This document shows, piece after piece, positions 25,701 through 60,474 of a DNA stretch of 64,000 bases. The notes below the pieces were generated by a model that saw nothing but the letters and a program-made list of their open reading frames with translations, was not told the DNA's origin and did no database searches. Each line of letters starts with the position of its first letter. Within the stretch, counting starts at the first letter, position 1. The stretch covers positions 248,001 to 312,000 of the forward strand of contig OZ237774.1 in the NCBI GenBank assembly GCA_965178125.1, given 5' to 3'. The position numbers and the translations under genes are program-made. Source of the DNA: Bilabrum cf. latius. Lineage: Eukaryota.

Positions 25701-26774
25701 GCTGCAATGCAATCATTGCATCAAAGCCGCTACCACCAGTGGAGCCATTGCCAGGTGCGACTAAACGCAAGTCGTCATGACCGAAATTAAGCAATCCCTC
25801 ATAGATCACTTGCTGTCCTCCTGGTTCTCCTTCATAGATTTCAAATGGTACGATCCAGCTTGAGTTGCTGTTTGACTGCGTACCTTGTGATGGACTAAAC
25901 ACGCCATCAACAAGCCGAGAATCGATTGATGCGTCATTGGCACTACGCGTAAGATCGTCGAAGTCTAGTATGTAGCACCCAAAGCTGTCTGAATACTACA
26001 TTTCTACTTCACCAAACTGTGACGACGAGGCTGCCAACTGCAGCATGTTTCGGGGACACGCGAGCATTCCTAACGGTAAGGAATTCTCCACCGATTGCAG
26101 AAGCTATGTATACACATCAGTGTCCCGACACTACCTCGTTCTAAGTGTGTGGCCCAGAATTTCAACTAGCGTTGGACTGCGAGGTGCAACAGCAGGGTAT
26201 CCGAACATTTTACAAGCTCCCGGCAACACAAGTGCGAAAATCTTAATACGATATGTGTCTTACGACGTTAATGATGAAGAAATCCCGTCCCATGCAACCA
26301 CTGAGTGCACTTCAGGTCGTGCGACGCTCGCTGAAGCAGTTGCCGAACAGGTTTGGTCTCCCAATTGCACAGCAGAAGATGGGCTACGAGACCAGGCCAT
26401 TTTTACCTTGGTGACTTCATCACAAGTTTTTAGCTGGTTTGGCAGCGTGCTGGAACTACTGGTACGATTATTGTAGCTGTTGGAGTCCCGGTTCTGCGTG
26501 GTCATCGTCGAGATTTCGGAAGGCTGGCAAGCTGCAATTTGACCGGAAGTTGGAATGCGCGCCGAGAATTTCCAGAGTAATATCATAATCTCACTATGAC
26601 TACCACTGCACGCGCGGTTGCTGCGTCCGTCGAGGCGTCACCCCCGTCGGTTCTGGTCTGTGACTGGCAGCTGAGCCCGGCAAAGAGCAGTTGCGAATGG
26701 CTTGCACCCGCTGCAAGAGGGGTGAATCCTGCGAAACTGCATGCTATAGCAACAAAGATGAGTTCTGTTAGCAT
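4756..26774 (-). CDS. Giant (~7,270 aa) predicted type-I membrane/cell-surface protein with filamin/Ig-like and Cys-rich modules
   Basis: About 24 consecutive track ORFs from 4756 to 25902 share one frame. From 26176 to 4759 I found ~40 TAG and no TAA or TGA; terminal TGA at 4756. Signal-peptide-like start MLTELIFVAIACSFAGF at 26774. Putative introns 26532-26641 (less sure) and 26177-26263 (87 nt, removes a TAA). TM helix at ~6775-6858. Confidence 0.8.
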
Positions 26775-33541: not shown

Positions 33542-33612
33542 CGACCCGCCCGGGGATCGAACCCGGGACGTCACGGCGACAACGTGAAGTTTTACCACTA
33601 TACTAGCGGGCC
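33542..33612 (-). tRNA. tRNA-Asp(GTC)
   Basis: Minus strand GGCCCGC TA GTAT AGTGGTA AAAC T TCACG TTGTCGC CGTGA CGTC CCGGG TTCGATC CCCGG GCGGGTC G. It forms a full cloverleaf with GTC anticodon and G discriminator, and a T5 Pol III terminator follows. Confidence 0.93.
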
Positions 33613-36618: not shown

Positions 36619-39471
36619 ATGCCGACGAAAATCGAAATCCGAAGGAAATTTCGGACGATTTGGATTTCATTGTTGATTGGTACGGTCACTGCGGGGGTTC
36701 TAGTCGCCGTATTTCTGTCCCCTGCACAAACTAATCGTAAGGTTGTTGGATGCTGGACTATTACACCCCGACGGGTGGATTGACCCTAGAGAGCCATGAT
36801 CCGTGTGATTCATGCCACCTTAGGTGTAAATGGAAGTATTGTTAATGTAATCAACCCACTACTTGTGTCATTTTGGCTTCCAATCTGCGCCATGCTGTTG
36901 AGTAACCCGGCCTAGCCGTTGCCTCATTTGGAGCCATGGATTGCACCGTGCCCTAATTTACAGCGGCGCTGAGCCTGATTAATTGAATACATTCTGTTTC
37001 AAGCGCATACTAGGAGCACATGATTTGTAGTGCTGCAATCGTAGCCTGGCAATGCGTATGCATCGTTCGCATTGCCTTGCATCGTGCCTGCGCGTCGCAG
37101 AGAAGGACGCCGTGACGCCTGGCCGATCCCTGCAAGAGGAAGAGGAGTCTGAGGAAGTGTCAACATACCCTGACGAACTGTTCACCGATGATCAGCTCAA
37201 ATCGGGAGCCATCGCACTGCACATCATCGGTTGCATTTACACCTTTCTGGCACTGAGCATCGTCTGCGACACGTTCTTCGTGCCGGCGCTGGAAGTCATG
37301 ATCGAGGTATTTTAGCTGTCAGATGACGTCGCGGGCGCCACCTTGATGGCATCGGGAGGGAGCGCCCCCGAGCTTGCGACCTCTTTCGTTGGCACGCACT
37401 TGGCGAAGAACGGCGTGGGGTTCGGCACCATCGTGGGCAGCGCCATCTTCAACGTGTTGGCTGTGCTATCGGCGTGCGCAGTATTCGCCCCTGGAGGTGA
37501 GTGTTCCCCTACATGTGCAACGGCGGGTCATGATCGATGCACAAGCATGGGAGTTGCCCAGCCCACGCCCATGCCTGCGTCTGTTGCACCACCATGCAGA
37601 GCACACTCACACCCATCGCCATCGTCACACAATAACACTCGTCACACACCCTCGCAGTTCTGCCCCTGACCTGGTGGCCCCTGTTCCGTGACTCGAGCTG
37701 CTACGGGATCGGGCTAGCCGTGCTGTACGCCTTCTTCCTGGATGGTGTGATTTTCTGGTGGGAGGCCATGGTGCTGCTGCTGATGTACTGCCTGTACGTG
37801 CTAGTGATGGCGTACAACGTTGAGCTCTTCAGGTTCGTCAGGAAGAACGTTCTGTGCCAGAACTACAGCTAGGAGGAGAAGAAGGAGGCGGCAGAGGAGG
37901 CAGAGACCATGGGCCTGGTCACCGAGATCGACCAGGCGGCTGACCGGATGCAGATCATCGGGACAGAGATGCCGGACTCGTCGGAGATCGACCCGGAATC
38001 GATAAGCAAGGGAGCTACAGGCGGCGGGGGTGCCGGCTCGAGGGGCGGCGGATAGCAGCAGGGCACCACGGCTGCCCGTTCCAACCAGGTCGCGCCCATC
38101 TCCAGTCGGGGGGCCTCGGCCCCTCCCACCGATCGAGGGAACAAAGCCAAGGCATCTGAACGCCGCGTCAAGCAGAAGCGGGGTTCGCTGGCCCTGGATC
38201 GGTCAGCGGCTGGACTGGGCATGGCCCGAGCGCGGTGCACCTTCCATGGTCACGTGCTGCACTACATGCTGAGCAACATGGATCCCGTGGGCCTGGGTCC
38301 CTTTCAGCAGAAGGACAAACGGCTTCACCGCGCGGCGCAAATCGTGCTGCGTTCAAGCAGGACGCAGGGCGGGATCAAAGACAAGCTCAAGAAGCTGGGT
38401 GGCATCGACAAGAAGAAGAGGCTGGTGACAGAGGCCGACATCGAGGCAGAGGGGGATGGATAGGCCCCCGCCAGCACGAAGGAGAGGGAGAAGAGGAGGA
38501 GCATCGCACTGCAGCGCGCCACGGTGGGCGTATTTGCGGAGAGCGCGATGGGAAGCAAGGTAAGGACCGCGCTCAGCAACAAGAAGGAAGAGGACGGTGA
38601 CGGAGACAGTGACCAGGGCCAGGGCGAGACACCCGGCGGACCCACGGACGCCAAGGCAAAGGCTGGCACCGGCGGAACGGTGTCGCCTGCTGGTGACTCG
38701 CCTCCGGATGCGGTTGGCATCGACTCGGGGGCCGCATCGAGCGAGATGGAGGATAATGAGGGCACAACTAAAGGCACAGGTGGGCCTGATGGCAGCAACG
38801 ACGATGACAAGAAGAAAGAAGATGAGGAAGGTGGGGATGGAGAAGAGAACGAGGAGACGATCGAGGACCTGATGAAGTGGCCCGACACGCTTCCTGCTCA
38901 GATCATGTACGTGATCTCGGCGCCGCTCGTGTGGAGCATGGCTTACACCATCCCGGATGTGAGGCTGTCCGACAGCCACAAGAAGTTGTACTTGCTTGCT
39001 TTTGTGATGAGTATTGTGTGGATCGGAGGCACGTCCTATTGCATGGTGTGGTGGATCGACACGGTGGGCAGAGTGCTCGGGATACCCCCCGTGGTGCAGG
39101 GCCTCGTTGTGCTGGCGCCCGCCACCAGCATACCTGATTTGCTGACGAGCGTGATCGTGGCGCAGCAGGGGTTAGGAGACATGGCGGTGTCGTCGTCCAT
39201 CGGCTCCAACATCTTCGACATCCTGATTGGCCTGCCGTTGCCTTGGATTACCTTCACTGCCTACAACGGCGGTGAGATTGCTGTGGGCAACGACAGCCTC
39301 CGGTTCAGCGTGTTCATGCTGATCCTGATGCTGGGCACGACCATAGGCATCATCGCAGCGTTCCAATGGAAGATGACAAAGTACCAGGGAATCGTGTTCA
39401 TGACCTTCTATGGGATCTTCGTGCTCGTGTCTCTGCTCATCGAGTATGAGCGGATCTCGGCGCCGTTCTGA
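36619..39471 (+). CDS. K+-dependent Na+/Ca2+ exchanger (NCKX/SLC24 family)
   Basis: Alpha-1 repeat [30 protein letters not shown] and alpha-2 repeat [35 protein letters not shown]. Introns 36737-37100 and ~37497-37657. TAGs at 37313, 37870, 38053 and 38461; ends at TGA. Confidence 0.92.
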
Positions 39472-42344: not shown

Positions 42345-42515
42345 GTTACAAAGGCAAGTGTTCGGCTTGTGGTAGGCAGTAGTTGCATTGAAGAAATCGA
42401 TGCGATTAAAGTCAAATTAGAACGCCACAAATAATAGGCGCCGCCAGTCATCAGGTTCCGCACCTTGACAGACCGACGACAGGTTTTGCGTCCCACCTCC
42501 CAGGATTGGTTCAAG

Positions 42516-43457
42516 ATGGCTGCGGTACGGCAAGCTTCTAGGCGCATGTTTTCATCAACAGCAAAGTCTATGGGAAAGATTAAGAGGAAATTGGTCTTTT
42601 TTGGGGCACCAGGTGTCGGCAAGGGCACATTCGCTGGACGAGTGTCTCCGGCGCTCCGAATACCGGCTATTTCGACCGGAGACATAATTAGGGCTGAGAT
42701 CAAGGGTGGTACTGATCTGGGAAAGAAGTGCTAGGTGAGAGATTGGGCTGTTGGTCCCAGATCTCGTAGACACGAGCCGTATCACGCCATCTTGCAGGAC
42801 TCGCTAGAACTGTGGCAGCTTTTCTGAACAGTTCTGTGCCCTGAAACCTCGAGACTCCACGAGTATTGCAATCATTTTAGTGTGCATGTGTTACTCTGTA
42901 AGATTATGTCGAAGTGCCATGATTCCTTGCAGGAATACTCAGACAAGGGTGACCTGATCCCGGACGAGCTTGTAGATGCCATGGTGGAGAAGCGTCTCGG
43001 CGAGCCGGACGCAAAGCGCGGCTTCATCTTGGACGGATATCCGCGCACGGTTGGTCAGGCCGAAGCCCTGTCAAAGTACATGGATGTGGACGCAGTGGTG
43101 AACATCACGCTGCCGCAGCACGTGCTCATGGAGAAGCTGCTCGGCCGCCGGGTGTGCGAGCAGTGCGGCAGGGGCTTCAACGTGGCTGCCATTCACGAGG
43201 GCGACTTGGACATGCCCCCGCTGCTCCCGAAGAAGGGCGACTGTGACGAGTGCGACGGCGAGCCGACCCTACTGACGCGCGCTGACGACACGGAGGAGGT
43301 CGTGAGGAACCGGCTCGAGGTGTACGACAGAGAGACTTCCCCGGTGCTGAAGTACTACCAGGACCAGGGCAAGACCCAGGATTTCGCGGTGAAGAAGGGG
43401 ATCCAGGATGTGCCGAGGCTATTCGAGGACTTGGGAATCACCGTGGTGGAGGCGTGA
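42516..43457 (+). CDS. Adenylate kinase with mitochondrial-type presequence
   Basis: [29 protein letters not shown] region RRVCEQC, RADD. Exon 1 ends in TAG (42732-42734) directly before the GT-AG intron 42735-42932, giving [17 protein letters not shown]. Confidence 0.93.
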
Positions 43458-43720
43458 CGCAGGGAGGATTCGATAGACTGGTGGATGGTGTGGCGAATGG
43501 CTTCAGATTCCTGTGCTGTATGTATGCAGACAACCACGCAGCGATCCATGGATTAGTTTTGTCACGTGTGGATGTGTGTACATGTCCTATCGTCACGATC
43601 TGCAGCGCGCATAATACTGTTGCAACAATGCAAGCGCACCACTTCAATCCAACGGGGCACGACACCTCACCAGCCTGCCGGCCCAGACGCACACCATGAT
43701 CCGATCACAAGATGATCCGA

Positions 43721-46519
43721 TCACGGGCCCGCATCCCCAGCTGCAGCTACATCCTCCTGTTCTTTGCTCTCCCCCGCACCGGCCTCCCCTCCCTCTTCCT
43801 CTTCGCCCGCCTTGCCCTTCTTCTTCTTGTCCTCCTTGGGCTGATCAATCGTGCCGAATTCCTGCCTGGCGCGCCTGGGATCTCCCTCGGGGATCACAAA
43901 ATGACCCTCCCAGTCACCCGCAGTGGCCTCGGTCGTCAGCTGCACCTTGTGCTGCTCCTTGTGCGCAAGGTACTCGGCCCTCTTCGCCTCGCTTACTGTT
44001 GGCCTTGTCTCTCGTGCCGCCGCCTCAATGCAGTCGGGGCCCAGGGCCCAAGCTGAGGTGTCGTCGCCGCGTTTTTCCGCCGCGATTCGCTGCGACACGC
44101 TCATCTTCACTGCGCGCTTGCACAGCCCGGCGATGTCTGCACCGGTGAGGTGCTGCTCTGCAGACCACCGCGCGAGGCTATCCATGTTGACTCGGCTGTC
44201 CAGGCGCGTCTTCCTCAGGCACGCGTTCACGATGTGCCTGCAGCCCTCCTCTCCCTCGGGCAGACCAACGTAGATGAACTGATCCAGACGTCCTGTCCGC
44301 AGCACGGCAGGGTCAAGGTTATCGAGGAAATTGGTCGCACCGATGATGAACACCTGCTTGCGCTTGCCCATGCCGTCCATTTCCGTCAGCAGCTGGTTCA
44401 CCACCCGGTCCGCTGGGTTGGATCCACCGACCCTGCCTCCCCGCTTGGATGCAATCGAATCCATTTCGTCGAAGAAGATCACGCAGGGTGAGCTCTGCCT
44501 TGCCTTGTTGAAGATGTCGCGGACGTTCTCCTCCGATTCGCCGAACCACTTGGAGTGCAGCTGCGGCCCCTTGATGCTGATGAAGTTGCACTCGCACTCG
44601 TTGGCAATCGCCTTGGCCAGCAACGTCTTGCCGCAGCCCGGGGGCCCGTACAGCAGGGCACCCTGCGGTGCGGTGATGCCCATCTTCTCGAACAGGCTGC
44701 CGTGCTTGATGGGCAGCTCGATCATCTCCCTCAACTCCTGCTTGACCGCATCCAGTCCACCAATGTCTGCGAACTTGGTGTTGGGCCGCGTGACCGCCAC
44801 GTCCCTCATCCCCGAAGGGGTGATTCCCTTGGCCGCATTGAGGAAGTCCTGCATGGTCACGTACAGCTGATCGATGAACTCCACGGGCACCTCTTTCTCG
44901 TCCAAGTCGATGAGGGTGGGGGCCCGGTCACGCACCGTGGCCAAAGCGGCCTTGGTGCACAGTGACGTCAGATCCGCGCCCACGTACCCGTGCGTCATGT
45001 CCGCGATCCGATCCAGGTCCACACCGTTCTGATTGTCCGGGTGCCCCGGGTGCTCCTCCTCGAGCTTCTTGTCGAATGGCTTGAGCTTCATGCCCTTGCG
45101 GACGGTCAGAATCTCCAGGATTTCCATGCGCGCTGCCCTGTCCGGCACGGGGATGGCAATCTCCGAGTCGAAGCGGCCTGCGCGGCGGAGCGCTGGATCC
45201 AGAGCATTCGGCCGGTTTGTAGCGGCGAGCACCATGACCTGCTTGGAGCCTTTGAGTCCGTCCATGCAGGTGAGCAGGGTGGCCACAATCCGCCGCATTG
45301 TCTCGTCCTGCACCTTGTCCCTGTTGGGGGCGATCGCGTCGATCTCATCGATGAAGAGGATGGCAGGCGCGTTGTCCTCGCAGTCCTGGAATGCCTTGCG
45401 CAGGTTCGATTCCGACTGCCCTGCCATGGGCGCCACGATGTCGGGGCCGTTGATGGAGAAGAAATACGCACCCACTTCGTTTGCGATTGCTTTCGCAATG
45501 AGCGTCTTACCGCAGCCGGGGGGTCCTGACATGAGCACCCCCTTTGGTGGCTTGACACCGATGGTCCGGAAGAGCTTGGGCAATCTCAGTGGCAGCTCGA
45601 TCATCTCCCTGATCTGGCCTATCTGCTTCTTGAGGCCGCCAATGTCGCTGTATGACACCGCGTTCAGCGACTTGAGGCCCTCCGTCTCGGGCATGCGATC
45701 CGGAGCCAGAATGATGTCGGTCTGCTGGCGGATGGCCTCCCCCTCTGGACCCCTGGTTGGGGGGGTTGTCGTGTCCACGATCCCCCAGTCGGACTCGGCG
45801 CCCTCCTCCACGGCCCCTTTCGCAGCCACCTCAGTGATGATAAAGGTGAGTTTCTTGCCGCTCCACGGGACCTGGAAGACGTCCCCGGCGCACACGGGGC
45901 GCCCGGGGGCGGGGAAGGAGGCAAAGTACGGCTGCACGATGGTGGAATACACGTCGCCCGTCACGCCGTCGGCCTGGGCCGTGTCGATGAGAGCCACGTT
46001 TACGGTCTTCAGCTGCACGTGTGACGAGGGCTTGACCGTGCAAAAATCGCTGGGCCTCAACCTTAGGTTGTGTCGTATGCTCGTTCCAACCCCGATTGAG
46101 CCCGGGTGAATCTCCTCGCTCTCCTGCACGACCGCCGCGGATACTCGCTTCATCCGACCCTTGATTCGAATCACGTCATCTGCAAAGATGTCAAGCGCTT
46201 CCATGTCGTCGGGGTGCATCTGCACAACGCTGTTGAACGTGCCGGCGTCGGTGCCGGAGGCAACCACAGGCTCATCCACCTGAAGCCTGTTCGCCGGGAC
46301 AAACCTACGAGAGAAGTTAGTAAATAATGAAATAAATTAAGCTGAGCCACTGCACTCGCAAGGGGGGGCTATACTGCGCATGAAAAGGCTGCAACCTTGT
46401 CGTTCTCGAGCAAAAAACTAGATTTTCCTGTCAAAAAAGGAATCTACAGCTACATATTGCGGCCCCAATGATCAATTATACGATAAATACGGCTTGATCT
46501 ACGATATATTAAATGCCAT
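43721..46519 (-). CDS. CDC48: CDC48/VCP-family AAA+ ATPase (divergent)
   Basis: N-domain NRLQVDE..NSVVQM and two AAA domains (GPPGCGKT twice, IDEID, FDEMD, DRVVNQLLTEMDG). The short first exon (ATG 46519) is inferred; the intron has a TACTAAC branch point at 46316-46322. TGA at 43721. Confidence 0.85.
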
Positions 46520-46867
46520 CTCAATGGCAAGCCCACAGTGCGGACGGGTGATGGAAGCGTGCAGCTCACTTTGGTTCCAGCTCGTCGTCCTCGGGAGACG
46601 AATGCTCCCGTTCGATTACTGCAGGCTTGGGCCCAGCATCAGAATCACCTGCACCGCTGCTTGGGTCTCCTGAAGCTGCCATATAGAATGATAGATAAGT
46701 CCCAACTGATCGGGCTTGGATCGCTCGAGATCAAATCTGATTTAGATTCTTGCTCCGGATGGAAAGTAGGGTGCCATTTGGAACACGAGGCGAGCGCGAA
46801 CGGATACAAGGGACGCCAGCTCTGACTCGATCAATACCTGAAATCCAAACTGTATCCCAACTGTAAA

Positions 46868-48066: not shown

Positions 48067-48226
48067 ATGACGAATACACGATTGATGGTACAGAAACACA
48101 CATGACAAAGTTGCTGACCGACCGAGTGCAAGGATGTTCTCTGCGGCCCACATCGCGCTACCCAAGTGCAGTGCGACCAACTTGAAGGACAGAATGAACA
48201 GAAACCCGACCCCATGCTCTCACTCG

Positions 48227-49666
48227 TCACAGGAACACCACGAGACAGGTCACGTTGTCCGATGAGCCCCTCTTGAGCGACTCCCTCACGATCAGGTCAG
48301 CAGCGCCCTTCATGGCCGCGGCCCGTGAGGGTGCCCCCGCCGGCTCCTTGTCTCCTGGCTGCACGTGAAGGCGGACGAGGTCCACGGCTTCCTGGTCCTC
48401 GAGTACGTCCCACACCCCATCGCACGCGATAATCAGGAATTGACTCGACGCGTTCAGCTTGGTCGTGCTGGTGAACGGCTCCGGGGTCACGTATTTCTTC
48501 ATGGAAAAATCCCCAAAGGCCCGAGCCACGGCCAGGCATCCCATGACCCTCCTCTTCACCACGAAGCCCCCCGCGCTCTCGATACGCCTCACCTCCGGCT
48601 CGTCTGTTGCCTTGTGGTCCATAGATAGCCGCACGGCCCGCCCCTCGTGGCATAGCACGGCTCGCGCGTCACCGCAGTTCGCGGTGTAGACGTACCTCTT
48701 GGGCCCCTGCTGCCTTACGATGCACAGGATGGCAGTGGCACCGCTGGCCGCCTCTCCCGTCCTGGAGCACTCGATATCCGTGAGCACAAAGGCGCTCTTG
48801 AGGCATTCTTCCACGCTCCGATCGGATTTGGCCAGGAGCTCACGCTCCACGTTGTCGTGAAGGTGGGTCCGCAGGTACTCGGCGACGAACCTACCCCCGT
48901 GCCCGTCGTACACCGCGAACAGGCCCGTCCCCTCATCGCCCCCAAACTTGTCTATCACCACGAACGCGTCCTCCATCGTGCTCCTGTAGGCAGCATTCAT
49001 GGCTTCCGCGCCGCTTACCATCCGGACGCTGGAGCACGAGGAGGGGAGGGTCTCCACGGTCGACGCGACTGATTTTGAGGTTCCCCCCAGTGGAATGCGG
49101 AGACGAGCAGTTGTCGAGGCACCCTCAACTGCGGCTGCGGCTCCCTCCCCGGCCCGAGCACCTGTCCCTGTCCCGGCGCCGTCCGATGTAGAGTTGCAGC
49201 CCGTTCCAGGCGCCGTTGCTTCCGAGGGTCCGCCGGCTCCCGATGCTGCTGCGCTCAAGCCGGTTCCAGACCGACTGTCTATTGCTTCTGTTGCCTTCGG
49301 TCCTTTTTCCTGTGTGCCTCCTGCAGCTGCATTTGTTGCTGCATCTGCTGATTGGCTGCTTGCCATAGCAGCCCGCGAATCTCCCCGGAATTTGCTCGTT
49401 GACTGATCGCTCGAGGACGATTCGGTTGCTGATGTATGTGAAGAAGAACTTGCAGGTGCAGAGCCCGCTGGCGGTCTTCCAGATGCAGACAGGTTGGGAG
49501 GACCACCCGGGCCAAGCGGCGTTTCCACGTTTCTAGGCTTCAGTCGCGTTTTCTCGCCTCCATCAGCGGTGGCAGACCCTGATCCGCTGGACGTATGCAA
49601 TATGTGGGATAGAGATGTAGCCCGAAGTTCCTTTCTTGATGCTGCATGTGCTGCAGCACTTGCCAT
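48227..49666 (-). CDS. Protein phosphatase 2C (PPM family, Ptc1-like)
   Basis: MEDA, VYDGHGG, ANCGDARAVL, DHKA, LAVARAFGD, IIACDGVWDV, SSDNVT; ends at TGA. Confidence 0.95.
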   Translation of the reverse strand: MASAAAHAASRKELRATSLSHILHTSSGSGSATADGGEKTRLKPRNVETPLGPGGPPNLSASGRPPAGSAPASSSSHTSATESSSSDQSTSKFRGDSRAAMASSQSADAATNAAAGGTQEKGPKATEAIDSRSGTGLSAAASGAGGPSEATAPGTGCNSTSDGAGTGTGARAGEGAAAAVEGASTTARLRIPLGGTSKSVASTVETLPSSCSSVRMVSGAEAMNAAYRSTMEDAFVVIDKFGGDEGTGLFAVYDGHGGRFVAEYLRTHLHDNVERELLAKSDRSVEECLKSAFVLTDIECSRTGEAASGATAILCIVRQQGPKRYVYTANCGDARAVLCHEGRAVRLSMDHKATDEPEVRRIESAGGFVVKRRVMGCLAVARAFGDFSMKKYVTPEPFTSTTKLNASSQFLIIACDGVWDVLEDQEAVDLVRLHVQPGDKEPAGAPSRAAAMKGAADLIVRESLKRGSSDNVTCLVVFL

Positions 49667-49903
49667 GCTCCCGTCCGTTGCGTTTGCAAGCGTGCGCGTG
49701 ATCCCTTGGCAGGGTTAAGTCGACCGAAAATACCTCCGGTATCTAGTCAAACTATGATTAATACTGTATTTTGCTGTTGACGATGCGATTTATAGCTGTA
49801 ATCAACTGTTCTTGGAGTTAATGCAAATTTCATGTTGGCGGTATTCCGGCTCCGCATCCACGATACGGTCCACTTTTTTCGATTCACCGTTACAGGCTCA
49901 GTG

Positions 49904-51166
49904 ATGCAAAAAGTCTCCTCATCAGCGTAGAGATCAGTGGTCCGAGCCAGTTATTCAATCGCGGCCTGCTCTAGGCGAGCGATGTGGTGCTGCTGCGGCA
50001 GTCATGCCGCTGCAAAGGGCCACGTCAGCAAGGGCGCGGGTGCGATCCTGTCTACGACAAAAGCGGTATCAGCCAGCAGGGCTCTTTCTACAACCAGCTC
50101 TAAAGCGCAAGGAATCTCAGGACATAAGAGGAAATTCGTAGTTTCGGGTGCAAGTGGAATGCTCGGCACGGAGCTTGGCACCATTTGCGTACGGGACGGC
50201 ATCGAGGTCGTGAAGCTCGTCCGCAAACCGTCTGGCAAGCCAGACGAAGCATTTTGGGACCCACTCAGCGGCAAAATCGAGAAGGAAAAGCTTGAGGGAG
50301 CTGACGCGTTCATTCACTTGGCAGGCGAGAACATCGGATCAGGGGACGGCCTGCTCGCTTTCACCGGACGCTGGACGGAAGACAAGAAAAAGAGAATCAT
50401 CCGAAGCAGGCAGTTAGGAACGAAGCTTCTTGCGGAAACTGCAGCGGGGCTGAAGCATCCCCCGAAAGCGTTCATCAGCGCAAGCGGCGTAGGTTTCTAC
50501 GGCGACAGCGGAGACACGGTGCTGACGGAGGACAGGCCCAAAGGAGACGGATTCCTGGCAGACGTGGCCTCTGAGTGGGAACTTGCGACCAAACCCGCGA
50601 GTGACGCCGGCATCCGCACGGTAACCGCCCGCATCGGGGTCATTCTCAGCAAGGAGGCGGGTGCCCTGGAGAAGCTGTACCTGCCCTTCTTCCTTGGGCT
50701 TGGGGGCCCCATAGGCACTGGGGAACAGTGGTTCTCGTGGATCTCCCTGAGGGACGCGGCGAGGGCCCTGAGGTTTCTGGCTGTGGGGGAAGGTGCATCG
50801 CATGGTGGTGCAGCCGCTGCAGGTGCTGCAGGAGAGCACGGCGGCAGCGAGAGCGAGGTCGAGGGCAAGGGCAAGGGCGGAGATGATGCATCTGATTAGG
50901 CATGGGAGCAGAAAGCCAGGGGTCCGGTGAACGTGTGCTCTACTCCCTGCAGGCAGAGCGAGTTCGCCACTGCGCTGGGCTCGGCCATGACCCGCCCTGC
51001 CATCATCCCTTTGCCCTCGTTTGCAGTCAAGCTCATGTTTGGCGAGATGGGGGAGGAGACGATCCTCGTGTCGCTGCGCGGGGACAACAGCAAGCTCACA
51101 AAGGAGCTGGGGTTCAAATTGATGGACGAGACACCTCTGGACGGATGCAAGCAGGCGCTGTAGTAA
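49904..51166 (+). CDS. SDR39U1/TIGR01777-type NAD-dependent epimerase family protein
   Basis: SGASGMLG, IHLAGENI, SASGVGFYG, GGPIGTGEQWFSWI. It continues through TAG 50897 into the family C-terminus GPVN..EFATALG..RP...LPSFAVKLMFGEMG and ends TAG-TAA at 51161-51166. Confidence 0.88.
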
Positions 51167-52251
51167 GCAAACCACTATCGGTCTTGAACCTAGCTAGATA
51201 TTGGACATGGACAGTGACAGCACCGTAGGATCGTTATATTTTCTAATCATATAATTGTTCATGAATAGAGTTTTCCGTGCTATTTCGCCGTTCGTCGTCC
51301 GAACTTTCGCCGCAGTGTGGCCCGGTCAAACTCGACATTTCGTTTACTCCAAAACAAGGGAAGGCCGGCAGCCCTATAAACTCAATATAGCTTGAAAATT
51401 GTAAACACCATGATGAGGCTTGCACGCAGTTTGATGACCGCAAGAAGGGCTTCCAGGAGATTTGGATGGCATGCCGTAACGTGGCCAGTCGCGGCCTGTT
51501 GCCTATACTCAGGGTGCAGGGAAACGCCGCTGCAGTGCAAGTCGTACATGTTGCATTCATGGGGTGAGCGGCACTACATAAGGCGGACCGAGGAGGGACC
51601 GGAAGCATGCGTTTCGAAAGGACATCAATGTGGCTAGAGCGGGCCGTCGGGCTCTGCCCAATGCCGGGCGTCCACACTGCCGTTGACACAGATTGTGCAG
51701 CACAGCGATTCGGGTCCGATCGAACGTACGTCACAGACATCTGGTGTACGCATGTGGCCCGGTCCGGGGGATGTGCTGTTGCTTGGACGAGCACGCATGT
51801 GCGAGGGGGAGCAGCAGGAGCAGCAGGACACTGCCAGTGGCAGGGGGGCGGACAGAATACAGAAATTGTTGCATGCCGGGGTTAGTGGGGCGAGACGTGG
51901 ATTCCAGTCGTTTGGTGCATCAGTTGCTAGCGATCTCACTGGGCTCGACACTAGAGCGGGCTGCATCAGGCGGAGGGGTACTGGAGTGCCAGTCGTGTAG
52001 GGGTCTACCATGGCTGGAGCAGACCGGAGCTGATGCAATGACGGATGTTAGCTGTCAAAGCTGTCCATTGATATTGTTTTCGTGCAATTTTGCTCTCAAA
52101 TCGGCTCGCTTGCAGTCACTGTAAATCTGTGCATTTGTGAAGATGAAAATCAAAATAGCTGGAAAGAACAGCACAAGGGCAACAGCACCATTTATTCCAC
52201 GTGCGAGCATTTGTTGGCCGTGTCTGCCGATAGGTTGATTGGACTATTAGT

Positions 52252-53796
<1,545 letters not shown>

Positions 53797-53983
53797 CGAC
53801 AGTGTCAGAGTGATGGTTGCAAACCCGGAAACCTGACCAATGATCCGATCATCGAACATATATCTGCGATCGCCTGGGTGCGACGCGCGGTTTCAGTCAT
53901 CATGCCGAGTGCTTCGCATAGTGTCGCTATCCGATTGATGCCGTCTCGAGCTGCCGCCCACGCACCCACACCTGGTTCAAAAC

Positions 53984-56900
53984 TCACTCCCCGTCCTCGT
54001 CCTCGTCCTGCTCTTCATCTTCCTAAAACGCGTCATCATCATTATCATCATCGCCATCGCCACCGCTGTTGCCCCGGCTCTTGTGGCCTTGTTTCTATCC
54101 AGCGCGCGCATTGGATGCATCTGATGCAGCACCCGCTTTGTCCTGCTCCTCGCCATCGCTGTCATCGTTCATCTCCTACATCTTCTCTCTAGCCTTGGCA
54201 CTGCTCGCGCGCCGGCTCCTCCCACTGGATGCACTCGTCACACCACTGTATGCACTCGTCACACCACGGCTGCCACCGGCGCCCTTGGAGGCCATGGCGG
54301 CCGCGCCTGCGGCGACGGCCGCGGCCGCTTTGGCTGCCGCGTCGATTGCCGTCCCTGCCCCGCCGCTGGATGCGCCACCATGCGCTGCACCCTTCCCAGT
54401 CGGCATCCACCCTTGCAGATCGAGGGTAGGTCTCTTGGCCTTCTTGGTGTCGTTGGTGGGATCGGACCTGTTGTCCTCGTCGACCAGGTTCCGCCACTTG
54501 TCCTTGAGGTTCACTGAGGTTCGCCCGTTCGCCGCGAGCACGCTCTTGAAAGGCTCCGTCTTGAGAATGACGGCCCACTTGCCCAGCCCGAACCTCGACA
54601 CGCCCGCTCGCAGAGCAGAGACCTCACCGGGTGTCCATGCCTTCCTCCGCTTCTGGCGCACCTGCTCGGCAAGCACGCTCGGGAGTAGCATGGAGGCTCC
54701 TTTCGTGGACACGGAGATGACCCCCGCAGGGGGGTATGCGGGGTAGAAGGGGTTGATGGCCTTGGGGTTGAGTGAGGGACGGACCTTTGCTGGCTGCGGC
54801 TGGGCCTGGAACACGGCTTCCTGGGCCAGCTCCATCCTGACTGCGTGAGGGTCCGAGTGGTCCACCGGGCGGTTTGCGATTCCGAGTTGCTCCCGGATGT
54901 CCCGCAGATGACCACCTTCCTTCCTGACGTCACTGATGCCGATGACGTCACGGAGCGTCTTACCCTGACGCTTGCCCTTGCCCTTGCCATTTCCGCTGCT
55001 GTCCTCCCCACTGTCCTCCGAAGAGGACCCAGTCCGGCTTTGGCCACCTTTCCGGCTTTGGCCACCTTTCCTACCCGTCTGCTTGCCATCATCGTCCTCG
55101 GCATCCGTGGGGTCCTGACTGCTGCTCCCATCGCTTGCGCTGCCGTGCGCTGCACCCGCCGCCGTCGCCGCAGCCCCGAGCAGCACTTTGCCATTGGCAG
55201 CACCATCGTGCAGTGCACCTTGATCCTAGATCCAGCACCTTCTCCCCCTTCGCCGGCCACCCCTGCCACCCCCTTCTGCTTTGCTCCTGCCCTTGCCCTT
55301 GCTCTTGATGTTGCTGCCGAGGGCACTGCCGGTCGGCACCACTGGTCGAGGCGTTGGAGTCAGCGTGTCGATCGTGTCGTTCTGGGCCTGTGCAACGCCA
55401 TGCAGTGCACCCGTTGCGGACGGTGCGACACCACTCGTCACGCCTGCAAGCGCAAGGTCGGCGGTATCCGCCGATCCCGTGCTCCGATTGGATGGTGAGG
55501 CATCACCGCCTGCCATGCCCCTGCCCCTGCCCCTGGCCCGCCCCCTGCTCCCGCTCCTGCCCCTGGGCCTGGATCTGGATCTCGACTTGGTGGACCAGAT
55601 CATCACTTCATCGTCGTCGTCGTCATCGCTGTCTTCCTCCTCGTCCTCCCTTGCACGCTGCTAGTTCGCTTGCTGCTTGTGCTCGTCCTTGCCATTGCTG
55701 CTCCCTGCAGGCACCTGGCCAGCGACTCCTCGCTTCCTGCCACTGCCGTGCGCTGCACTTCCTCTGTCCCCGCTGTCCCCGCTAGCACCCCCTTCACTCC
55801 CCCCATCTCCCCTTGGTGGGGACACGTCAGACAGCCCGCGGGGCTCAGTGGCCTGCGACGAACCTTCTGTAGACGTGCGGTCCACCTCTTCCACTGCGGA
55901 ACCGGCGGCGCCGCGTGACGGAGAACCCCTTCCGCTTCTTCTCGTACTCAGCCGCCCGCTGCCCACCACAACGCAGCTCGCATCCCCGGGTGCACCATCG
56001 TGCAATGCACCTGATTTGCGCCGCCTGTGCTGGCTGCGAGGTGCCCCGGCCAATGATCGGGCATTGCTCCCTTCATCTTCGTCCTCGTCCTCGTCCTCGT
56101 CCTCGCTGCTGCTGCTGCCCCCCACTTCGACCACTTCGCCGTCCGAGTCAATCTCCTGGCGCCACGCAGGTTCCATGACCCCGTTCTTGTTCTTGCTCCG
56201 ATCACTGATCCCACCTTGACCACCGGTTGATTTGCCGCTCGAACGCCCAACACGAGTGGCTGCAGATCGAGGCTTGCTTGATCCCAAGTCCTCCTCTTCG
56301 TCCTCATCCTCGTACAGATCTTCGCTGCCGTAGTCCGCCTGGAAACCATCGTCCACTCCATCATCGCTCGGGGCCCCTTCCCCATTGACTCCTCCCTCCT
56401 GGTCTCCTTCCGCCATCGCCCGCTGGCTACCCCTGCCCCGGCCCCGGCCCCGCCCCCGGCCCCGGCTCCTGCCCCTGCCTCTGCCCCTGCCTCTGCCTTT
56501 GCCCCTGCCTGCGACACTTGGTCTGGGTCGCTGGTTTGATCCACTGGTGGGTTTCGAAGTGCGGCGGCGCTTGGCAGGTCGCCCCTCCGGAGAGTGTTGG
56601 TCATCATCACCTCCGGCCCAATCATCTCCTTGACCACTTTCGGCGCTGCTGTCATCGCTGTCATCACTGCCAGGCTCGGCATAGTTCACGCTCCTGCTCC
56701 TGGCCCGGCTTGACCTGCGCGTGTCTCGGCGCCTCTTGCCGCTGGCTGGGGCTGGGACAGTATTAGTCTTGGAGGCACGACCGGGACCATCGGCCTTGCC
56801 CTTGCTTCTACTCTTGCTCATGGTCTTGCTCCTGGTCTTGCTGGCGGACACCTGCTCATTCTCAGCCTGGCCAGCACTCTCATCGTGGTGGAGCTCGTGG

Positions 56901-59900
56901 CTTTGACTGTTCTTGTTCATCGGTGCAGAGCCATCCGCTGAAGCTGACAGGCCACCACCCACCAGGTGCGCGATGGAGGCAGGCAGGGACATGTTCAGGA
57001 TTGGCTCGTCCTCGCTGTCTACAGACCCTGACTCGGACCCTGACTCCGACTCGGAGCCGTTTGTTCCCTGGCGGGTCCTCCGTGCCCTAACCCCGCCCAT
57101 GCCTCTTCCATGGCTGCCCGTGCCCCTGCCCCTGCTCTTGCTCCTGCTCTTGCTCTTGCTCGCCGACCTCCCTCGCGGTGTGGAGATCCACACGATGGCC
57201 AAGTTCCCCCCCTCGTCTTCCTCGCTGCTGCTACTGCCCCTGCTCCTACTCCTGGTCCTGCTTTGATTTATGCCGTTGATGCCGGTATCCACGCCATCGT
57301 GCGATGCACCTGTACCGGCACGTAGCCCCGTGCTTCGCGACCTCGATTTTGACCTTGGCTGCACCCTGCCCCAGTTGGGCCTCTTCCTCTTCCTCCCGCC
57401 GGAGCCACTTTTGTTCCCTGATCCGATCCATGCGCTCCTGACCAGGTCACCCCCGACCCCCTCCCACTCGTCATCCCCGCTGTCTTGCTCGCTGCCCGAG
57501 TCTGTGGTCGTGGACGAATCCATAATCTCTCCCGTGCTGGAGCTGGAACTGCCACTGCCTGCGTCCTTAACCCCTTCGTCCATCTCCAACACGCTGCCGT
57601 CCTGCCGCCTGCCACCCTGCCTACCGATCCGCCGGCGACCGGTGGATCGACGGGTCCCTTGCTTCCCCCGGGGTGATCTGGGATTGGAGTTGGAGTTGGA
57701 GTTCGAGTTCCCACGCTCGGCTCTCCGTCGAGGCCCACTCTTTACCCTACCCCTCCGTTCAACCCTCTTCTTATTTCTCTCCTTCTCCTCTTCTTCACCG
57801 TCCTCTGGCCTGTCGCTGTCCCAATCACTATCGCCACCACTGGAATCGTCCTCGCTGCTGCTGGCCCCCGCCCCTTTGCGAACACCCTGCCGCCCTCGTG
57901 ACCGCCTTTGGCCACCCTTGGCTTTCGCAGCACCCCTGACACCGCCACTCCCCTCCTATGCTCCCTGAGCCTGTCCACCGGTGTACTTTGCACCGCGGGT
58001 CACCTTCTTGCCACCGCCTGCTGCACCCGCACGACCACCGCCACGGGCCGCGACCCGCATCCCTGCGCGTGCCCACCACCCCTCCCCTACCGCTTCCCGG
58101 GGTGCACCACCATGCACTGCACGCAGCGGTGTCGGGCCTCCGCTGCTCCTGTCGCTAGGCCCTTCTACCTCTCCATCCCTCTGGAAATCGACGCTGGAGG
58201 AACAGGGGTCGTGGTGGAGCACCGAGTCGGACAGGGGGGTCTGGCTGCGCCTGCCAGAGGTAGCCCCCTGCGGGGTGGTCAAAGTGGAGCCGGCTCCGAT
58301 GGAAAGACTCGATGAAGATGCGCACACCATCGTGGGCTGCAGATCAGTCCACTCGTCACACCGGGATCCGGATCGCACAGCCAGCACTGCCGCAGCTGCA
58401 GCCATCGATGCCATTTTGGGCCACATGTTGGACGCGGCTCCCGACTCGCTCCACACCGAGTCCTCGCCAATGCGGCGCATGGCTCGGCGGGGCCTCTTGG
58501 CCCCGAGTGCCTCAAAGGCGCCGCGCAGTACGTTCCGCAATCCCTTGCCGCGCATAGCAGACGGAAGCACTTGCGATCTCAGCCGTGGGCCGGCAGCCAC
58601 TTGCCAACCATGGCGCGGGATGGTTCCATGCAGCGCACTGCCGTGCGCTGCACCCTTGTGGGGAACAGGGGGTACCTGCTGCGTGGGAGCAGGCGGCGGC
58701 AGACCGGTACCGCCGTGCGCTGCACCCGCGCCAACCCGCCTGCGGACTGGCATCTGACCCCCCCTGCCGCGCCGACTCGCCTGCCCGGCCAGCATTCCGA
58801 TTCCGAGTTCCCCGATGCGAGGTGAGTAAGTTTCATTCTGGCCACGGGCAGGGGACTTCCCCTTACCGGGAGATTTCCCCTGGGGGGTTCTCCCCGGGGT
58901 GGGGTCATGCAGCAGCAGGGCTGTTTCCCTTGCTTCCTGCCTCCACCGGTGGGGTGAACCTGACATACTCCTGCTCCTGCTCCTGCCTTGTTCCCTTATT
59001 TCGTCGTCGTCATCGTACGGCACGCTAGCACCATCGTGCGATGCATCTGACCGAATGGGTACCTCATCCAGCGCCACGTCTCCCGGCCCCAACCCCCCAT
59101 CATGCACCCCCCCATGCACCCCCCCATGCACCCCCCCATGCACCCCCCCATGCACCCCCCCATGCACCCCCCCATGCACCCCCCCATGCACCCCCCCATG
59201 CACCCCCCCATGCACCCCCCCATGCACTACGCCCGCCCCGCCCCACCCACTCGGCTCCGAGCCCCCGCCGTCATCGAAACCGTGATCTGGAGCACCACCA
59301 TGCGCTGCACCCTCAGCACCGAGCCCCCCCTGAGGCGAGACTGCCTGTGTCTGGGAATCAAACCCGGGAGCCGGCAGCACGTATGCCCCCGAGTCCGATT
59401 CTCCGCCGCTGGGCTGGCTCTGACTCTGGCTGTGGCTCTGGCTCCGACGCTGAACTCGGTCTCGGTCTTGATCTTGGTCAGCTCTAGCAAGCCCGTTAGG
59501 TCTCGTATTGTCTGCACCGCCGGACACGCCCGCACCCCTTGCATCCCCATCGTGCGAGGCGCCCGAGCCAGTCCCGTTCGCACTGCTAGCCGAGTTTCGC
59601 GCCGGATCAACGCACTCCTTGTCTGGGTGTGACGTCTGCACTGTAGATGGCGCCGATTTCTTTGGGGCCTCTCGACGTCCAGGCGCTGCTTTCGGATCTG
59701 CTGCACTGCTGCCAGTGGTCGGGGCGTCCAGCCCGCCTCTTTCCTCGTCGGCGATCTCTGCCTGGGTCTGCTGCCACTGGGCCACCTGGTCCTGAACCCA
59801 CGCTGCTTCCGAGTCTTCAGAAACGTCGCTGTCTTCGTCTTCGTTTCCTGCCTGCTCTTCTCCCTGCGAGTGCTTTACGGCGATCGCAGGTGCCTTGCTC

Positions 59901-60253
59901 GTGTCCGCAGCGGTGGCGCTCGGCTGCCGGTTCGGAGTCGAGATTTCTGGGCTGACTACGCTGGACGGTCCTGTCGCATTACCTTGGCTCCCAATCGACT
60001 CGTGCATGGAAGTCTGCACGGCCTGGTCGGCCGAGTTGGGGCCGTCCGATTCAGGGGCGATTTGAGCTGGTAGCTCTTTCGAAGACTGCAAAAAGTCAGG
60101 CGCCCTACCAATATCTGTCATCTTTTGTGTTTTCGGATCTAGCACAATTCCGAACAGGAGAAGAGATCTTGCTGTCGCGTCTAAGTGAGGTTGGCGCTGC
60201 CGGCTTGAGGCCACACCCGCATTGGCCAACTGCTTCTTCTCCGAAAGCGCCAT
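53984..60253 (-). CDS. ~2,090-aa largely disordered protein with a telobox Myb domain near the C-terminus (TRF-like telomere-repeat-binding candidate)
   Basis: Myb RKAWTPGEVSALRAGVSRFGLGKWAVIL...GRTSVNLKDKWRNL. Four track ORFs share one frame joined by TAGs at 57956, 55661, 55226, 54176, 54095 and 54023. TGA at 53984. Confidence 0.75.
59101..59227. repeat. Perfect 12-bp tandem repeat (CATGCACCCCCC) x10.5 encoding GGVH repeats
   Basis: Directly visible; lies inside the telobox-protein frame. Confidence 0.95.
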
Positions 60254-60474
60254 TATATTTCCCGTGGCGTATTCTTACTGCGCGTAAGTTAAATTTAACA
60301 GATATGCACAAAACTACCAGTGGAAGCGGTAGGAAATGAAATGGTTGGCTCAAATCTATTTGAATCGTTCTTGTTATGTGCATGGTTCCGGTTTCTGGCA
60401 CACTGCCGGCTGCAGCTGCCAATGATCACGCAACAACCACTCGCTTCAAGTAGTGTGGCTCCGCCCTCATCTGC

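What the first reader, a model, noticed from the sequence alone, without database searches (positions are those of the whole stretch)
51158..51187. TAG and TAA appear decoupled: TAA not used as sense, TGA the dominant stop
Seen: no in-frame TAA in any reconstructed coding exon, including 0 TAA against ~40 TAG in ~7,140 codons of the giant exon. Sixteen genes end in TGA. The SDR39U1-like gene ends CTG TAG TAA at the expected family C-terminus. The TAA at 26260 falls within a GT-AG intron. Knowledge: most nuclear reassignments move TAA and TAG together (table 6). TAG-only changes are rare, reported for example in Iotanema spirale, an uncultured rhizarian and some phyllopharyngean ciliates. Inference: a table-15-like code requiring an eRF1 that recognises UAA and UGA but not UAG. 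Only one TAA terminus supports TAA=stop here, and a TGA follows at 51185.
Basis: partly seen in the sequence, partly recalled or inferred. Interest (0 to 1): 0.85.

Follow-up and report, generated by a model that had tools for sequence, protein, structure and literature searches.

The report
TAG-only stop codon reassignment, eukaryote
This GC-rich eukaryotic genome reads the stop codon TAG as an amino acid but never uses TAA inside genes, a rare uncoupling of two codons that nearly always change meaning together.

Summary
In 16 gene models (16,014 codons) there are 76 in-frame TAG, 0 TAA and 0 TGA. The other two frames of the same DNA hold 54 and 52 TAA. If TAA were used like other A-ending codons, 12-46 would be expected, so P(0) is 1e-5 or less. 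Spliced RNA contigs from three runs match the genome exactly and keep the TAGs, so the TAGs are not removed by RNA editing or splicing. TAG is spread evenly along genes with no special context, like an ordinary sense codon. Fifteen of 17 models end in TGA. The SDR39U1-like gene ends TAG-TAA, and gene A's TAA end is unreliable. That TAA is a working stop therefore rests on one gene. The amino acid for TAG is polar. Gln is favoured by two close relatives: one has Q where the window has TAG, the other has a stop where the window has CAG. Glu and Ser are not excluded; Leu is. No tRNA(CUA) or eRF1 gene lies in the window, and no whole genome is held. UAG-only codes are already known in a few lineages, but those whose stop usage is reported use mostly UAA. 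This one uses mostly TGA. Verdict: a real, probably new member of a known rare kind.

The parts
51158..51187 (+). The finding's locus: CTG TAG TAA, then six codons, then TGA, at the 3' end of the SDR39U1-like gene
   Evidence: Read directly; in-frame codon coordinates
49904..51166 (+). SDR39U1/TIGR01777-like gene. It is unspliced, with in-frame TAG at 49928-49930, 50897-50899 and 51161-51163, and ends at TAA 51164-51166
   Evidence: NCBIfam TIGR01777 scores 235.5 bits against a cut-off of 207.35. Homologues. RNA contig X6 record 14 covers 49895-51276 with no gaps and no differing letters.
51164..51166 (+). The only well-placed in-frame TAA terminus in the window
   Evidence: Relative P0246 ends one residue earlier in the alignment: its final Q aligns with the window's TAG, and its stop aligns with this TAA. 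More distant family members end within one residue of this point.
51185..51187 (+). Next in-frame TGA, 7 codons after the TAA. It would be the terminus if TAA were read through.
   Evidence: After true stops, the first in-frame TAA/TGA lies 6-28 codons downstream in 10 models, so the spacing is unremarkable.
4756..26259 (-). Giant ORF: 7,167 codons, 40 TAG, 0 TAA, ending in TGA at 4756-4758. No Pfam domain.
   Evidence: Fragments from a relative at 71-88% identity.
53984..60274 (-). Myb-domain gene ORF: 2,096 codons, 6 TAG, 0 TAA, TGA terminus
42732..42734 (+). In-frame TAG as the last codon of adenylate kinase exon 1, inside the conserved core and next to an RNA-supported splice junction
   Evidence: Joint 42732/42931, GT..AG, seen in 3 runs. 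Intron ends. Frame. The PDB alignment runs up to the residue before it.
37313..37315 (+). In-frame TAG in the alpha-1 repeat of the Na/Ca exchanger gene, exon 2
   Evidence: Exon supported by contigs of X6 and X8. Aligned to N and D of the two repeats of NCX_Mj. Coordinates.
43721..46648 (-). CDC48-like AAA ATPase gene: one intron at 46305-46569, 898 codons, no TAG, TGA terminus
48227..49666 (-). PP2C phosphatase gene: 479 codons, no TAG, TGA terminus
1246..2840 (-). FHA + protein kinase gene (partial model). TGA terminus at 1246-1248. A 93-nt intron at 1690-1782 contains the TAA at 1729-1731.
   Evidence: Pfam. Splice sites read. TGA-only ORF scan.
33542..33612 (-). tRNA-Asp(GTC), the only confirmed tRNA gene. 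No tRNA with a CUA or UUA anticodon lies in the window.
   Evidence: ARAGORN; Rfam 51.9 bits

Best explanation
This eukaryotic nucleus uses a genetic code in which UAG alone has become a sense codon. UGA terminates nearly all genes and UAA has kept its stop meaning as a minor terminator. UAG most likely encodes glutamine. The inferred mechanism has two parts. A tRNA with anticodon CUA pairs with UAG but not UAA; for glutamine it would be one mutation away from tRNA-Gln(CUG). The release factor eRF1 has lost efficient recognition of UAG while keeping UAA and UGA. Shown here: UAG is read through in expressed, conserved genes; UAA is absent from coding frames; UGA is the usual terminus. Inferred: UAA as a stop (one gene), the amino acid, the tRNA and the eRF1 change.
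For: (1) 76 in-frame TAG against 0 TAA and 0 TGA in 16,014 codons of 16 models. TAG is as frequent as other rare sense codons (TAG 80, TAT 72, CTA 87, TTA 32 over all 17 models). (2) From the A-ending/G-ending ratios of six codon pairs (fraction A 0.14-0.38), 12-46 TAA would be expected, so P(0) lies between 1e-5 and 2e-16. (3) TAA is not rare in the same DNA out of frame (54 and 52). (4) Spliced RNA contigs of X6, X7 and X8 show 7 GT..AG or CT..AC joints and match the window without a single differing letter. They retain the TAGs of the SDR39U1-like, Na/Ca exchanger and adenylate kinase genes. (5) TAG behaves as an ordinary sense codon: position along the CDS is uniform (KS p=0.70), the +4 base does not differ from all codons (p=0.28), and enrichment in the last 40 codons is not significant (odds ratio 2.1, p=0.13). 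(6) No coding-like ORF appears when TAA is allowed as sense. (7) The SDR39U1-like gene ends TAG-TAA. Relative P0246 ends with Q and then a stop at the same two alignment positions. (8) For Gln: P0246 has Q at the window's TAG. P0001, in the same 90% cluster, has a stop where the window (CAG) and P0246 have Q. A third relative ORF (P0243) ends at a window CAG.
Against: TAA as a functional stop rests on one gene, and a TGA follows 7 codons later, so a short extension cannot be excluded by homology (relative P0002 is 7 residues longer at this end). TAA termini number 1 (or 2) of 17, while TAA makes up 3 of the 10 first in-frame downstream stops, so TAA is if anything under-used as a terminator. 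The second candidate, gene A (TAA at 364-366), is unreliable: its coding score collapses near position 190, a GTGAGA donor-like site sits at 182, and 4 TAG crowd the last 38 codons. The amino acid is unsettled. At 6 TAG sites of the giant gene a 71-88% identical relative has K, S, H, S, E, E and never Q. Three relative ORFs end at window CAT, TCT and TCC. PDB homologues show N/D, T/M and K. Summed BLOSUM62 scores, added by hand from those residue lists, put Q, E and S about level. No tRNA(CUA) or eRF1 was seen. The whole sample is 64 kb.
Confidence: 0.68

Rival explanations
1. Both UAA and UAG are sense codons (a table-6-like UAR = Gln code with UGA as sole stop), and TAA is simply avoided because the genome is GC-rich.
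For: All ORFs can be closed by TGA. The single TAA terminus is followed by TGA after 7 codons. TGA closes 15 of 17 models. GC3 is 0.45-0.79.
Against: Other A-ending codons are well used (CAA 141 against CAG 445, GAA 275 against GAG 603, and even TTA 32), which predicts 12-46 TAA; 0 were seen, P<=1e-5. The only in-frame TAAs sit within the last 7-12 codons before a TGA, in sequence whose coding score has already collapsed. No coding-like ORF with an internal TAA was found.
Confidence: 0.08
2. UAG is ambiguous: sense inside genes but a terminator near the 3' end, as in Condylostoma or Blastocrithidia. On this view the SDR39U1-like gene really ends at TAG 51161 and the TAA says nothing.
For: TAG directly precedes the TAA at the expected family C-terminus. 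Several genes have TAG close to their ends: kinase at 14 and 10 codons before the stop, Myb at 12, and gene A with 4 in its last 38 codons.
Against: End-enrichment is not significant (6 of 640 against 70 of 15,374 codons, p=0.13) and the positions are uniform. P0246 has an ordinary Gln codon at that position and then stops. Lys-rich or acidic tails typical of the same proteins continue after the late TAGs in KRR1 and Myb. The RNA contig runs at least 110 nt beyond the stop, not the very short 3' UTRs that I recall for context-dependent codes (the recalled part comes from no call).
Confidence: 0.08
3. UAA is effectively unassigned: neither decoded by a tRNA nor used as a regular terminator, so it is purged from frames and UGA is the only real stop.
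For: 0 internal TAA, and only 1 solid TAA terminus of 17, fewer than TAA's 3-in-10 share among in-frame downstream stops.
Against: No eukaryotic eRF1 is known (from recall, no call) that reads UGA but not UAA. The SDR39U1-like gene and its relative both stop at the same aligned position, which is TAA in the window. One or two of 17 is compatible with a minor stop.
Confidence: 0.1
4. The in-frame TAGs are not translated as such: they come from pseudogenes or assembly errors, are removed by RNA editing or splicing, or are sites of programmed readthrough in a standard-code organism.
For: None specific. Highly conserved genes here (CDC48-like, PP2C, PACRG) have no TAG.
Against: 76 TAG lie in 12 of 16 models, with no TAA or TGA beside them. 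RNA contigs from 3 runs are identical to the genome and leave the SDR39U1-like gene unspliced. TAGs fall inside conserved cores of adenylate kinase and the Na/Ca exchanger. Relatives also carry stops inside the same ORFs, one of them at the same codon.
Confidence: 0.02

Closest known systems
Iotanema spirale (Fornicata) nuclear code: UAG = Gln, UAA and UGA stop (Panek et al. 2017, PMC5304391; passages read)
   Same: UAG alone is sense; no in-frame UAA; UAG is never needed as a terminator; Gln is the favoured meaning here too.
   Different: Iotanema ends 104 of 119 scored genes in UAA and 15 in UGA. Here it is 15 TGA to 1-2 TAA, in a ~59% GC genome. The Gln assignment here is not secure. The lineage is different: this organism carries a flagellar gene (PACRG), and its CDC48-like paralogue is nearest to a clade containing Cafeteria roenbergensis.
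Rhizarian exLh: UAG = Leu, UAA (56) and UGA (15) stop (PMC5304391; passages read)
   Same: UAG and UAA are decoupled.
   Different: Leu is excluded here. At 11 compared TAG sites no homologue shows L, I, V or F (one shows M). UAG density is also much lower here (0.5% of codons; several conserved genes have none).
Scotinosphaera sp. (Ulvophyceae): TAG = Ser, TAA and TGA stop (Li et al. 2021, PMC8271138; passages read)
   Same: TAG-only reassignment. Ser cannot be excluded here: S stands at 2 of 6 TAG sites in the giant gene's relative, and relative ORFs end at window TCT and TCC.
   Different: Close-relative comparisons favour Q. There is no evidence that the window is from a green alga.
Ciliates with UAG-only changes: Hartmannula sinica, Trochilia petrani and Protocruzia tuzeti (Gln), and TARA phyllopharyngean MAGs (Leu) (McGowan et al. 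2024, PMC11687900; abstract and passages read)
   Same: UAG is sense while UAA is kept as a stop. Suppressor tRNA(CUA) genes were reported there, which is the mechanism inferred here.
   Different: Those genomes have 27-54% GC and UAA is the preferred stop in all of them. Here TGA is preferred. Gene structure here (GT..AG introns of 89-364 nt, 59% GC) is not ciliate-like.
UAR = Gln codes (NCBI table 6: many ciliates, Dasycladales/Trentepohliales/Cladophorales, hexamitids, Streblomastix, Amoeboaphelidium; as listed in PMC11687900)
   Same: A stop becomes a polar residue, and UGA is the (main) terminator.
   Different: In-frame TAA, a defining feature, is absent: 0 of 16,014 codons where 12-46 would be expected.

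Membership tests
UAG-only reassignment (UAG sense; UAA and UGA stop) | In-frame UAG inside conserved, expressed coding sequences | tested here: met
   76 TAG in 16 models. TAGs lie inside the adenylate kinase and Na/Ca exchanger cores and between the two conserved halves of the SDR39U1-like gene, and are retained in RNA contigs.
UAG-only reassignment (UAG sense; UAA and UGA stop) | No in-frame UAA in coding sequences | tested here: met
   0 of 16,014 codons; 12-46 expected; no coding-like TAA-containing ORF. The window covers 64 kb only.
UAG-only reassignment (UAG sense; UAA and UGA stop) | UAA marks bona fide C-termini | tested here: inconclusive
   One gene (51164), with TGA 7 codons later. 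Relative P0246 stops at the same aligned position. A second candidate, gene A, is unreliable.
UAG-only reassignment (UAG sense; UAA and UGA stop) | UAG not used as a terminator | tested here: inconclusive
   No model needs TAG as its stop, and TAG positions are uniform. TAG directly precedes the TAA at 51161, however, and termination there cannot be excluded from sequence alone.
UAG-only reassignment (UAG sense; UAA and UGA stop) | Cognate tRNA(CUA) present and no tRNA(UUA) | not testable with these tools
   The window holds only tRNA-Asp. No genome is held.
UAG-only reassignment (UAG sense; UAA and UGA stop) | eRF1 N-domain altered so as to spare UAG (GTS, NIKS or YxCxxxF region) | not testable with these tools
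   No eRF1 gene lies in the window and none can be attributed to this organism.
Table-15-like / Iotanema-type (UAG = Gln) | UAG falls at conserved Gln columns | tested here: inconclusive
   Q in P0246 at the window's TAG 51161. Stops in P0001 and P0243 fall at window CAG. But 0 Q at 6 giant-gene sites, and N/D, T/M and K in PDB homologues.
exLh-type (UAG = Leu) | UAG falls at conserved Leu or hydrophobic columns | tested here: not met
   No L, I, V or F at 11 compared sites. The BLOSUM62 sum for Leu, added by hand from the residue lists, is about 40 below those for Q, E and S.
UAR = Gln (NCBI table 6) | Both UAA and UAG occur in frame | tested here: not met
   TAA 0 against TAG 76.
Context-dependent stop/sense codes (Condylostoma, Blastocrithidia type) | The same codon is sense internally and a stop at the transcript end | tested here: inconclusive
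   No significant 3' enrichment of TAG (p=0.13) or context bias. The RNA contig extends at least 110 nt past the stop. Not decidable without ribosome profiling.

The most novel reading that the evidence does not exclude
A previously unreported nuclear code change in a GC-rich, intron-poor, flagellated protist outside the ciliates, fornicates, rhizarians and green algae, possibly a stramenopile. Its CDC48-like paralogue is sister, with 100/99 support, to a clade holding Cafeteria roenbergensis. UAG would be captured (for Gln) while UGA rather than UAA is the dominant terminator. That is the reverse of the stop usage in the UAG-only lineages whose usage I could read, and it means UAG was lost as a stop in a genome where GC pressure should have favoured it over UAA.
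Probability: 0.35. Interest if true: 0.8.

Novelty: new member of a known kind. Interest (0 to 1): 0.7.

Why it matters
UAA and UAG almost always change meaning together, so the few exceptions show how the code can be split at the third codon position. In the exceptions whose stop usage I read (Iotanema, the exLh rhizarian and the phyllopharyngean ciliates), UAA is the main stop. A GC-rich genome with the opposite stop usage (mostly TGA, hardly any TAA) gives an independent case with a different mutational background. Genomic DNA and spliced RNA data also exist for it, so the predicted tRNA(CUA) and the eRF1 change can be looked up directly. There is a practical side too: standard-code gene callers will shatter this organism's genes. 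The database proteins of its relatives are visibly cut at such codons.

Tried and rejected
- Whole genome: none is held. Genome-wide TAA counts, tRNA(CUA/UUA) and eRF1 could therefore not be examined.
- Earlier findings: three look-ups gave nothing relevant.
- Word-indexed search of the giant protein (region 1-5000, shorter lengths) returned no hit at E<=1e-10. The exhaustive representative search of residues 1801-3000 then found 5 fragments.
- The CDC48-like search was swamped by canonical CDC48 and gave no close named relative (best 54%). The Atlas search of PACRG gave only animal-dominated clusters and no lineage.
- Amino-acid inference from the residues next to TAG was uninformative: log-likelihoods lie within a few units, with only K and E disfavoured.
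- Read laying: no RNA holder is listed on record. Three runs guessed as RNA behaved as RNA because they carry spliced joints.
- Gene A (1-366) was considered as a second TAA terminus and set aside.
- The single TGA between the SDR ORF (33649-34785) and the next ORF in the same frame was considered as possible readthrough. I rejected this because the downstream gene has its own ATG in the same frame (near 35035) and an unrelated Lys-rich product.
- ARAGORN's tRNA-Gly(TCC) at 57634-57723 was not confirmed by Rfam and lies inside the Myb ORF, so I treated it as false.
- The sigma-70 promoter/terminator scan is irrelevant for a eukaryote.
- Literature: searches found no report of a UAG-only code in a stramenopile or in a GC-rich non-ciliate. 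The library lacks most subscription journals and supplements were closed, so this is not proof that none is in print.
Full report
**What is at the coordinates.** On the + strand, 51158-51187 reads CTG TAG TAA GCA AAC CAC TAT CGG TCT TGA. This is in the frame of a gene at 49904-51166. The gene scores 235.5 bits against NCBIfam TIGR01777 (cut-off 207.35) and has 1,411 homologues at E<=1e-5 among the 8,000 candidates scored. In-frame coordinates are TAG 49928-49930, 50897-50899 and 51161-51163; TAA 51164-51166; TGA 51185-51187. The window is about 59% GC overall. It is gene-dense and eukaryotic: seven introns with GTRAG...YAG ends, 89-364 nt long, are supported by spliced contigs.

**TAG is a sense codon.** Under the standard stops the window breaks into many ORFs. 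With TAG read through, one ORF of 7,167 codons appears at 4756..26259(-). It holds 40 TAG, no TAA and a terminal TGA, while its two other frames hold 25+16 TAA and 139+168 TGA. I built 17 gene models from Pfam/NCBIfam matches, long ORFs and RNA joints:
- gene A (partial)
- FHA-kinase
- giant gene
- ankyrin gene
- SDR
- a Lys-rich gene
- Na/Ca exchanger
- an unknown gene at 40.5-42.3 kb
- adenylate kinase
- CDC48-like ATPase
- PACRG
- PP2C
- SDR39U1-like
- KRR1
- Myb
- two tandem paralogues

Leaving out gene A, the 16 remaining models hold 16,014 codons with 76 in-frame TAG, 0 TAA and 0 TGA. Frames 2 and 3 of the same DNA hold 54 and 52 TAA, 137 and 121 TAG, and 313 and 355 TGA.

Contigs of runs X6, X7 and X8 carry the spliced joints, so they derive from RNA. 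They show no differing letter anywhere in 36100-54000. One contig covers the SDR39U1-like gene from 49895 to 51276 without a gap. The TAG at 50897 therefore sits in the mature mRNA between the two conserved halves of the protein. The TAG at 42732-42734 is the last codon of adenylate kinase exon 1, inside the conserved core. The TAG at 37313 lies in the alpha-1 repeat of the exchanger. Editing, splicing and pseudogenes do not explain these.

TAG also behaves like any sense codon. Positions along the CDS are uniform (KS p=0.70). The following base does not differ from that after all codons (p=0.28). The excess in the last 40 codons (6 of 640 against 70 of 15,374) is not significant (p=0.13).

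**TAA is not used as a sense codon.** If TAA shared TAG's meaning, its use should follow the A-ending/G-ending ratios of comparable pairs:

| Pair | Counts |
|---|---|
| CAA/CAG | 141/445 |
| GAA/GAG | 275/603 |
| AAA/AAG | 150/425 |
| TTA/TTG | 32/198 |
| TCA/TCG | 179/293 |
| CTA/CTG | 86/541 |

These ratios predict 12-46 TAA next to 76 TAG. None was seen, and P(0) runs from 1.4e-5 down to 2e-16.

The count is partly circular for short ORFs, because I closed ORFs at TAA. It is not circular for the 7,167- and 2,096-codon ORFs, or for the RNA-supported models that run from ATG to the family's C-terminus. As a direct control I listed all ORFs closed by TGA only and looked for a TAA flanked on both sides by coding-like sequence. 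Two cases turned up. One is the TAA at 1729-1731, which lies in a 93-nt in-frame intron (1690-1782) of the kinase gene; its removal joins the two exon ORFs that carry the two halves of the Pfam kinase-domain match. The other is an ORF antisense to the giant gene.

The SDR39U1-like gene ends in TAA.
- Its end is at the family's usual C-terminus: four more distant homologues end within one residue of it.
- The close relative P0246 (92% identical) ends ...KQALQ, with its Q aligned to the window's TAG and its stop aligned to the window's TAA.
- Because the database proteins were cut at every standard stop, this shows that the end is conserved. It does not show which stop codon the relative uses.
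- A TGA 7 codons further on is not informative. In 10 models with such a codon in the stretch examined, the first in-frame TAA/TGA after the true stop lies 6-28 codons downstream, and it is TAA in 3 of the 10.

Gene A at the window's start reaches TAA at 364-366. However, its coding score collapses near position 190, a GTGAGA donor-like site sits at 182, and four TAG crowd the last 38 codons. I do not count it. On present evidence TAA is either a minor stop (most likely) or an avoided, effectively unassigned codon.

**Which amino acid?** Comparisons gave the following.
- Giant gene: five fragments of a relative (71-88% identical) were found. At six window TAG sites they show K, S, H, S, E, E. 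Their ORFs end at window codons TCC, TCT, CAT, CAG and TAG, the last being a shared stop position. P0241 and P0242 each come from a contig of 2,221 nt; if that is one contig, the P0241 end is a real stop.
- SDR39U1-like gene: P0246 has Q at the window's terminal TAG. P0001 (same 90% cluster) stops where the window has CAG and P0246 has Q. Both have G at the TAG in the lineage-specific insert.
- PDB homologues: N and D at the exchanger site, and T or M and K at two SDR sites. The adenylate kinase site is the residue after Ala49 of E. coli Adk, which I recall to be Lys.

No site shows L, I, V or F, so Leu (the exLh type) is excluded, and Tyr and Trp are very unlikely. Summed BLOSUM62 scores, added by hand from these residue lists, put Q, E and S about level. 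The two close-relative cases, which look like synonymous CAG/TAG exchanges, tip the balance to Gln. My estimate is Gln 0.6, Glu 0.15, Ser 0.15, other 0.1.

**Mechanism (inferred).** A tRNA with anticodon CUA reads UAG but not UAA. This is the argument made for Iotanema and the exLh rhizarian, and suppressor tRNA(CUA) genes were found in phyllopharyngean ciliates (PMC5304391 passages; PMC11687900 passages). eRF1 must have lost UAG recognition. Neither can be checked here. The window has one confirmed tRNA (Asp), no eRF1 gene, and no genome is held.

**Comparison with what is known.** UAG-only nuclear codes are described for:
- Iotanema spirale (Gln) and the exLh rhizarian (Leu) (PMC5304391)
- Scotinosphaera (Ser) (PMC8271138, passages)
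- Hartmannula, Trochilia and Protocruzia (Gln) and three TARA ciliate MAGs (Leu) (PMC11687900, abstract and passages)

[quoted passage not shown] Here the ratio is reversed, in a 59% GC genome.

The lineage is unresolved. The CDC48-like paralogue is sister (100/99 support) to a clade that includes a Cafeteria roenbergensis protein. That tree has 23 rows and only one named member of the subfamily, so it is a weak hint of stramenopile affinity. Five literature searches found no such code reported for a stramenopile. The library is incomplete and supplements were closed.

**Verdict.** The reading is partly supported: UAG/UAA decoupling is supported, while TAA = stop and TAG = Gln are probable but unproven. 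It is most likely a new member of a known rare kind, unusual for its TGA-dominated termination.

Noticed in passing
window 4241, 4750, 24968, 25215, 37636, 43242, 48221, 54232, 54253, 58350: The 11-mer CACTCGTCACA occurs 10 times where 0.04 is expected by chance, with no extended similarity around it. Two copies overlap the TGA stop codons of the giant gene (4756) and the PP2C gene (48227). Others lie inside coding sequence or at an intron's 3' end. Function unknown.
   Followed up: partly
window 59101-59220 (-), and scattered through 53987-60274; also 50790-50830 (+): The Myb ORF has a 12-nt tandem repeat encoding (HGGV)n, about 10-11 copies. It also has many copies of a GA(A/S)HGG-like peptide motif. 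The same motif opens the lineage-specific insert of the SDR39U1-like gene, an insert that the relatives P0001 and P0246 also carry.
   Followed up: no
window 1-400 (+): Partial gene A has four in-frame TAG in its last 38 codons before TAA 364-366, then TAA 394 and TGA 397. Coding potential drops near 190, where a GTGAGA donor-like site sits (182). This is either an unseen intron or a tail translated from former 3' UTR.
   Followed up: partly
window 60475-61239 (-), 62245-63009 (-), and part of 27033-30218 (-): Two tandem paralogues of 254 codons with no Pfam family share a segment (...MVFKAA.EGRPMELAKRLRLGR...) with the ankyrin-repeat gene. One paralogue has TAG where the other has a Thr codon.
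   Followed up: no
window 33649-36291 (+): Three consecutive ORFs lie in the same frame, each separated by a single TGA (33649-34785 SDR, 34786-35709 Lys-rich protein, 35710-36291). The second has its own ATG in the same frame (near 35035), so the first pair are separate genes. The third ORF was not examined.
   Followed up: partly
window 57634-57723 (+): ARAGORN calls a 90-nt tRNA-Gly(TCC) inside the Myb ORF. Rfam does not confirm it, so it is probably a false positive.
   Followed up: yes
window 4756-26259 (-): The 7,150-residue predicted protein has no Pfam domain. It appears to have a hydrophobic, membrane-span-like stretch followed by a long low-complexity tail near its C-terminus, judged by eye from the translation. 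Only fragmentary relatives (71-88% identity) exist among 1.84 billion representative proteins.
   Followed up: partly
window 43721-46648 (-): The CDC48-like ATPase is not canonical CDC48. It belongs to a separate paralogue clade and is sister to sequences that include Cafeteria roenbergensis. This is the only lineage hint obtained.
   Followed up: partly
window 35906-36007: A simple dinucleotide-type repeat, read as (AP)n on the minus strand, lies between the Lys-rich gene and the exchanger gene. It blocked read laying over that stretch.
   Followed up: no
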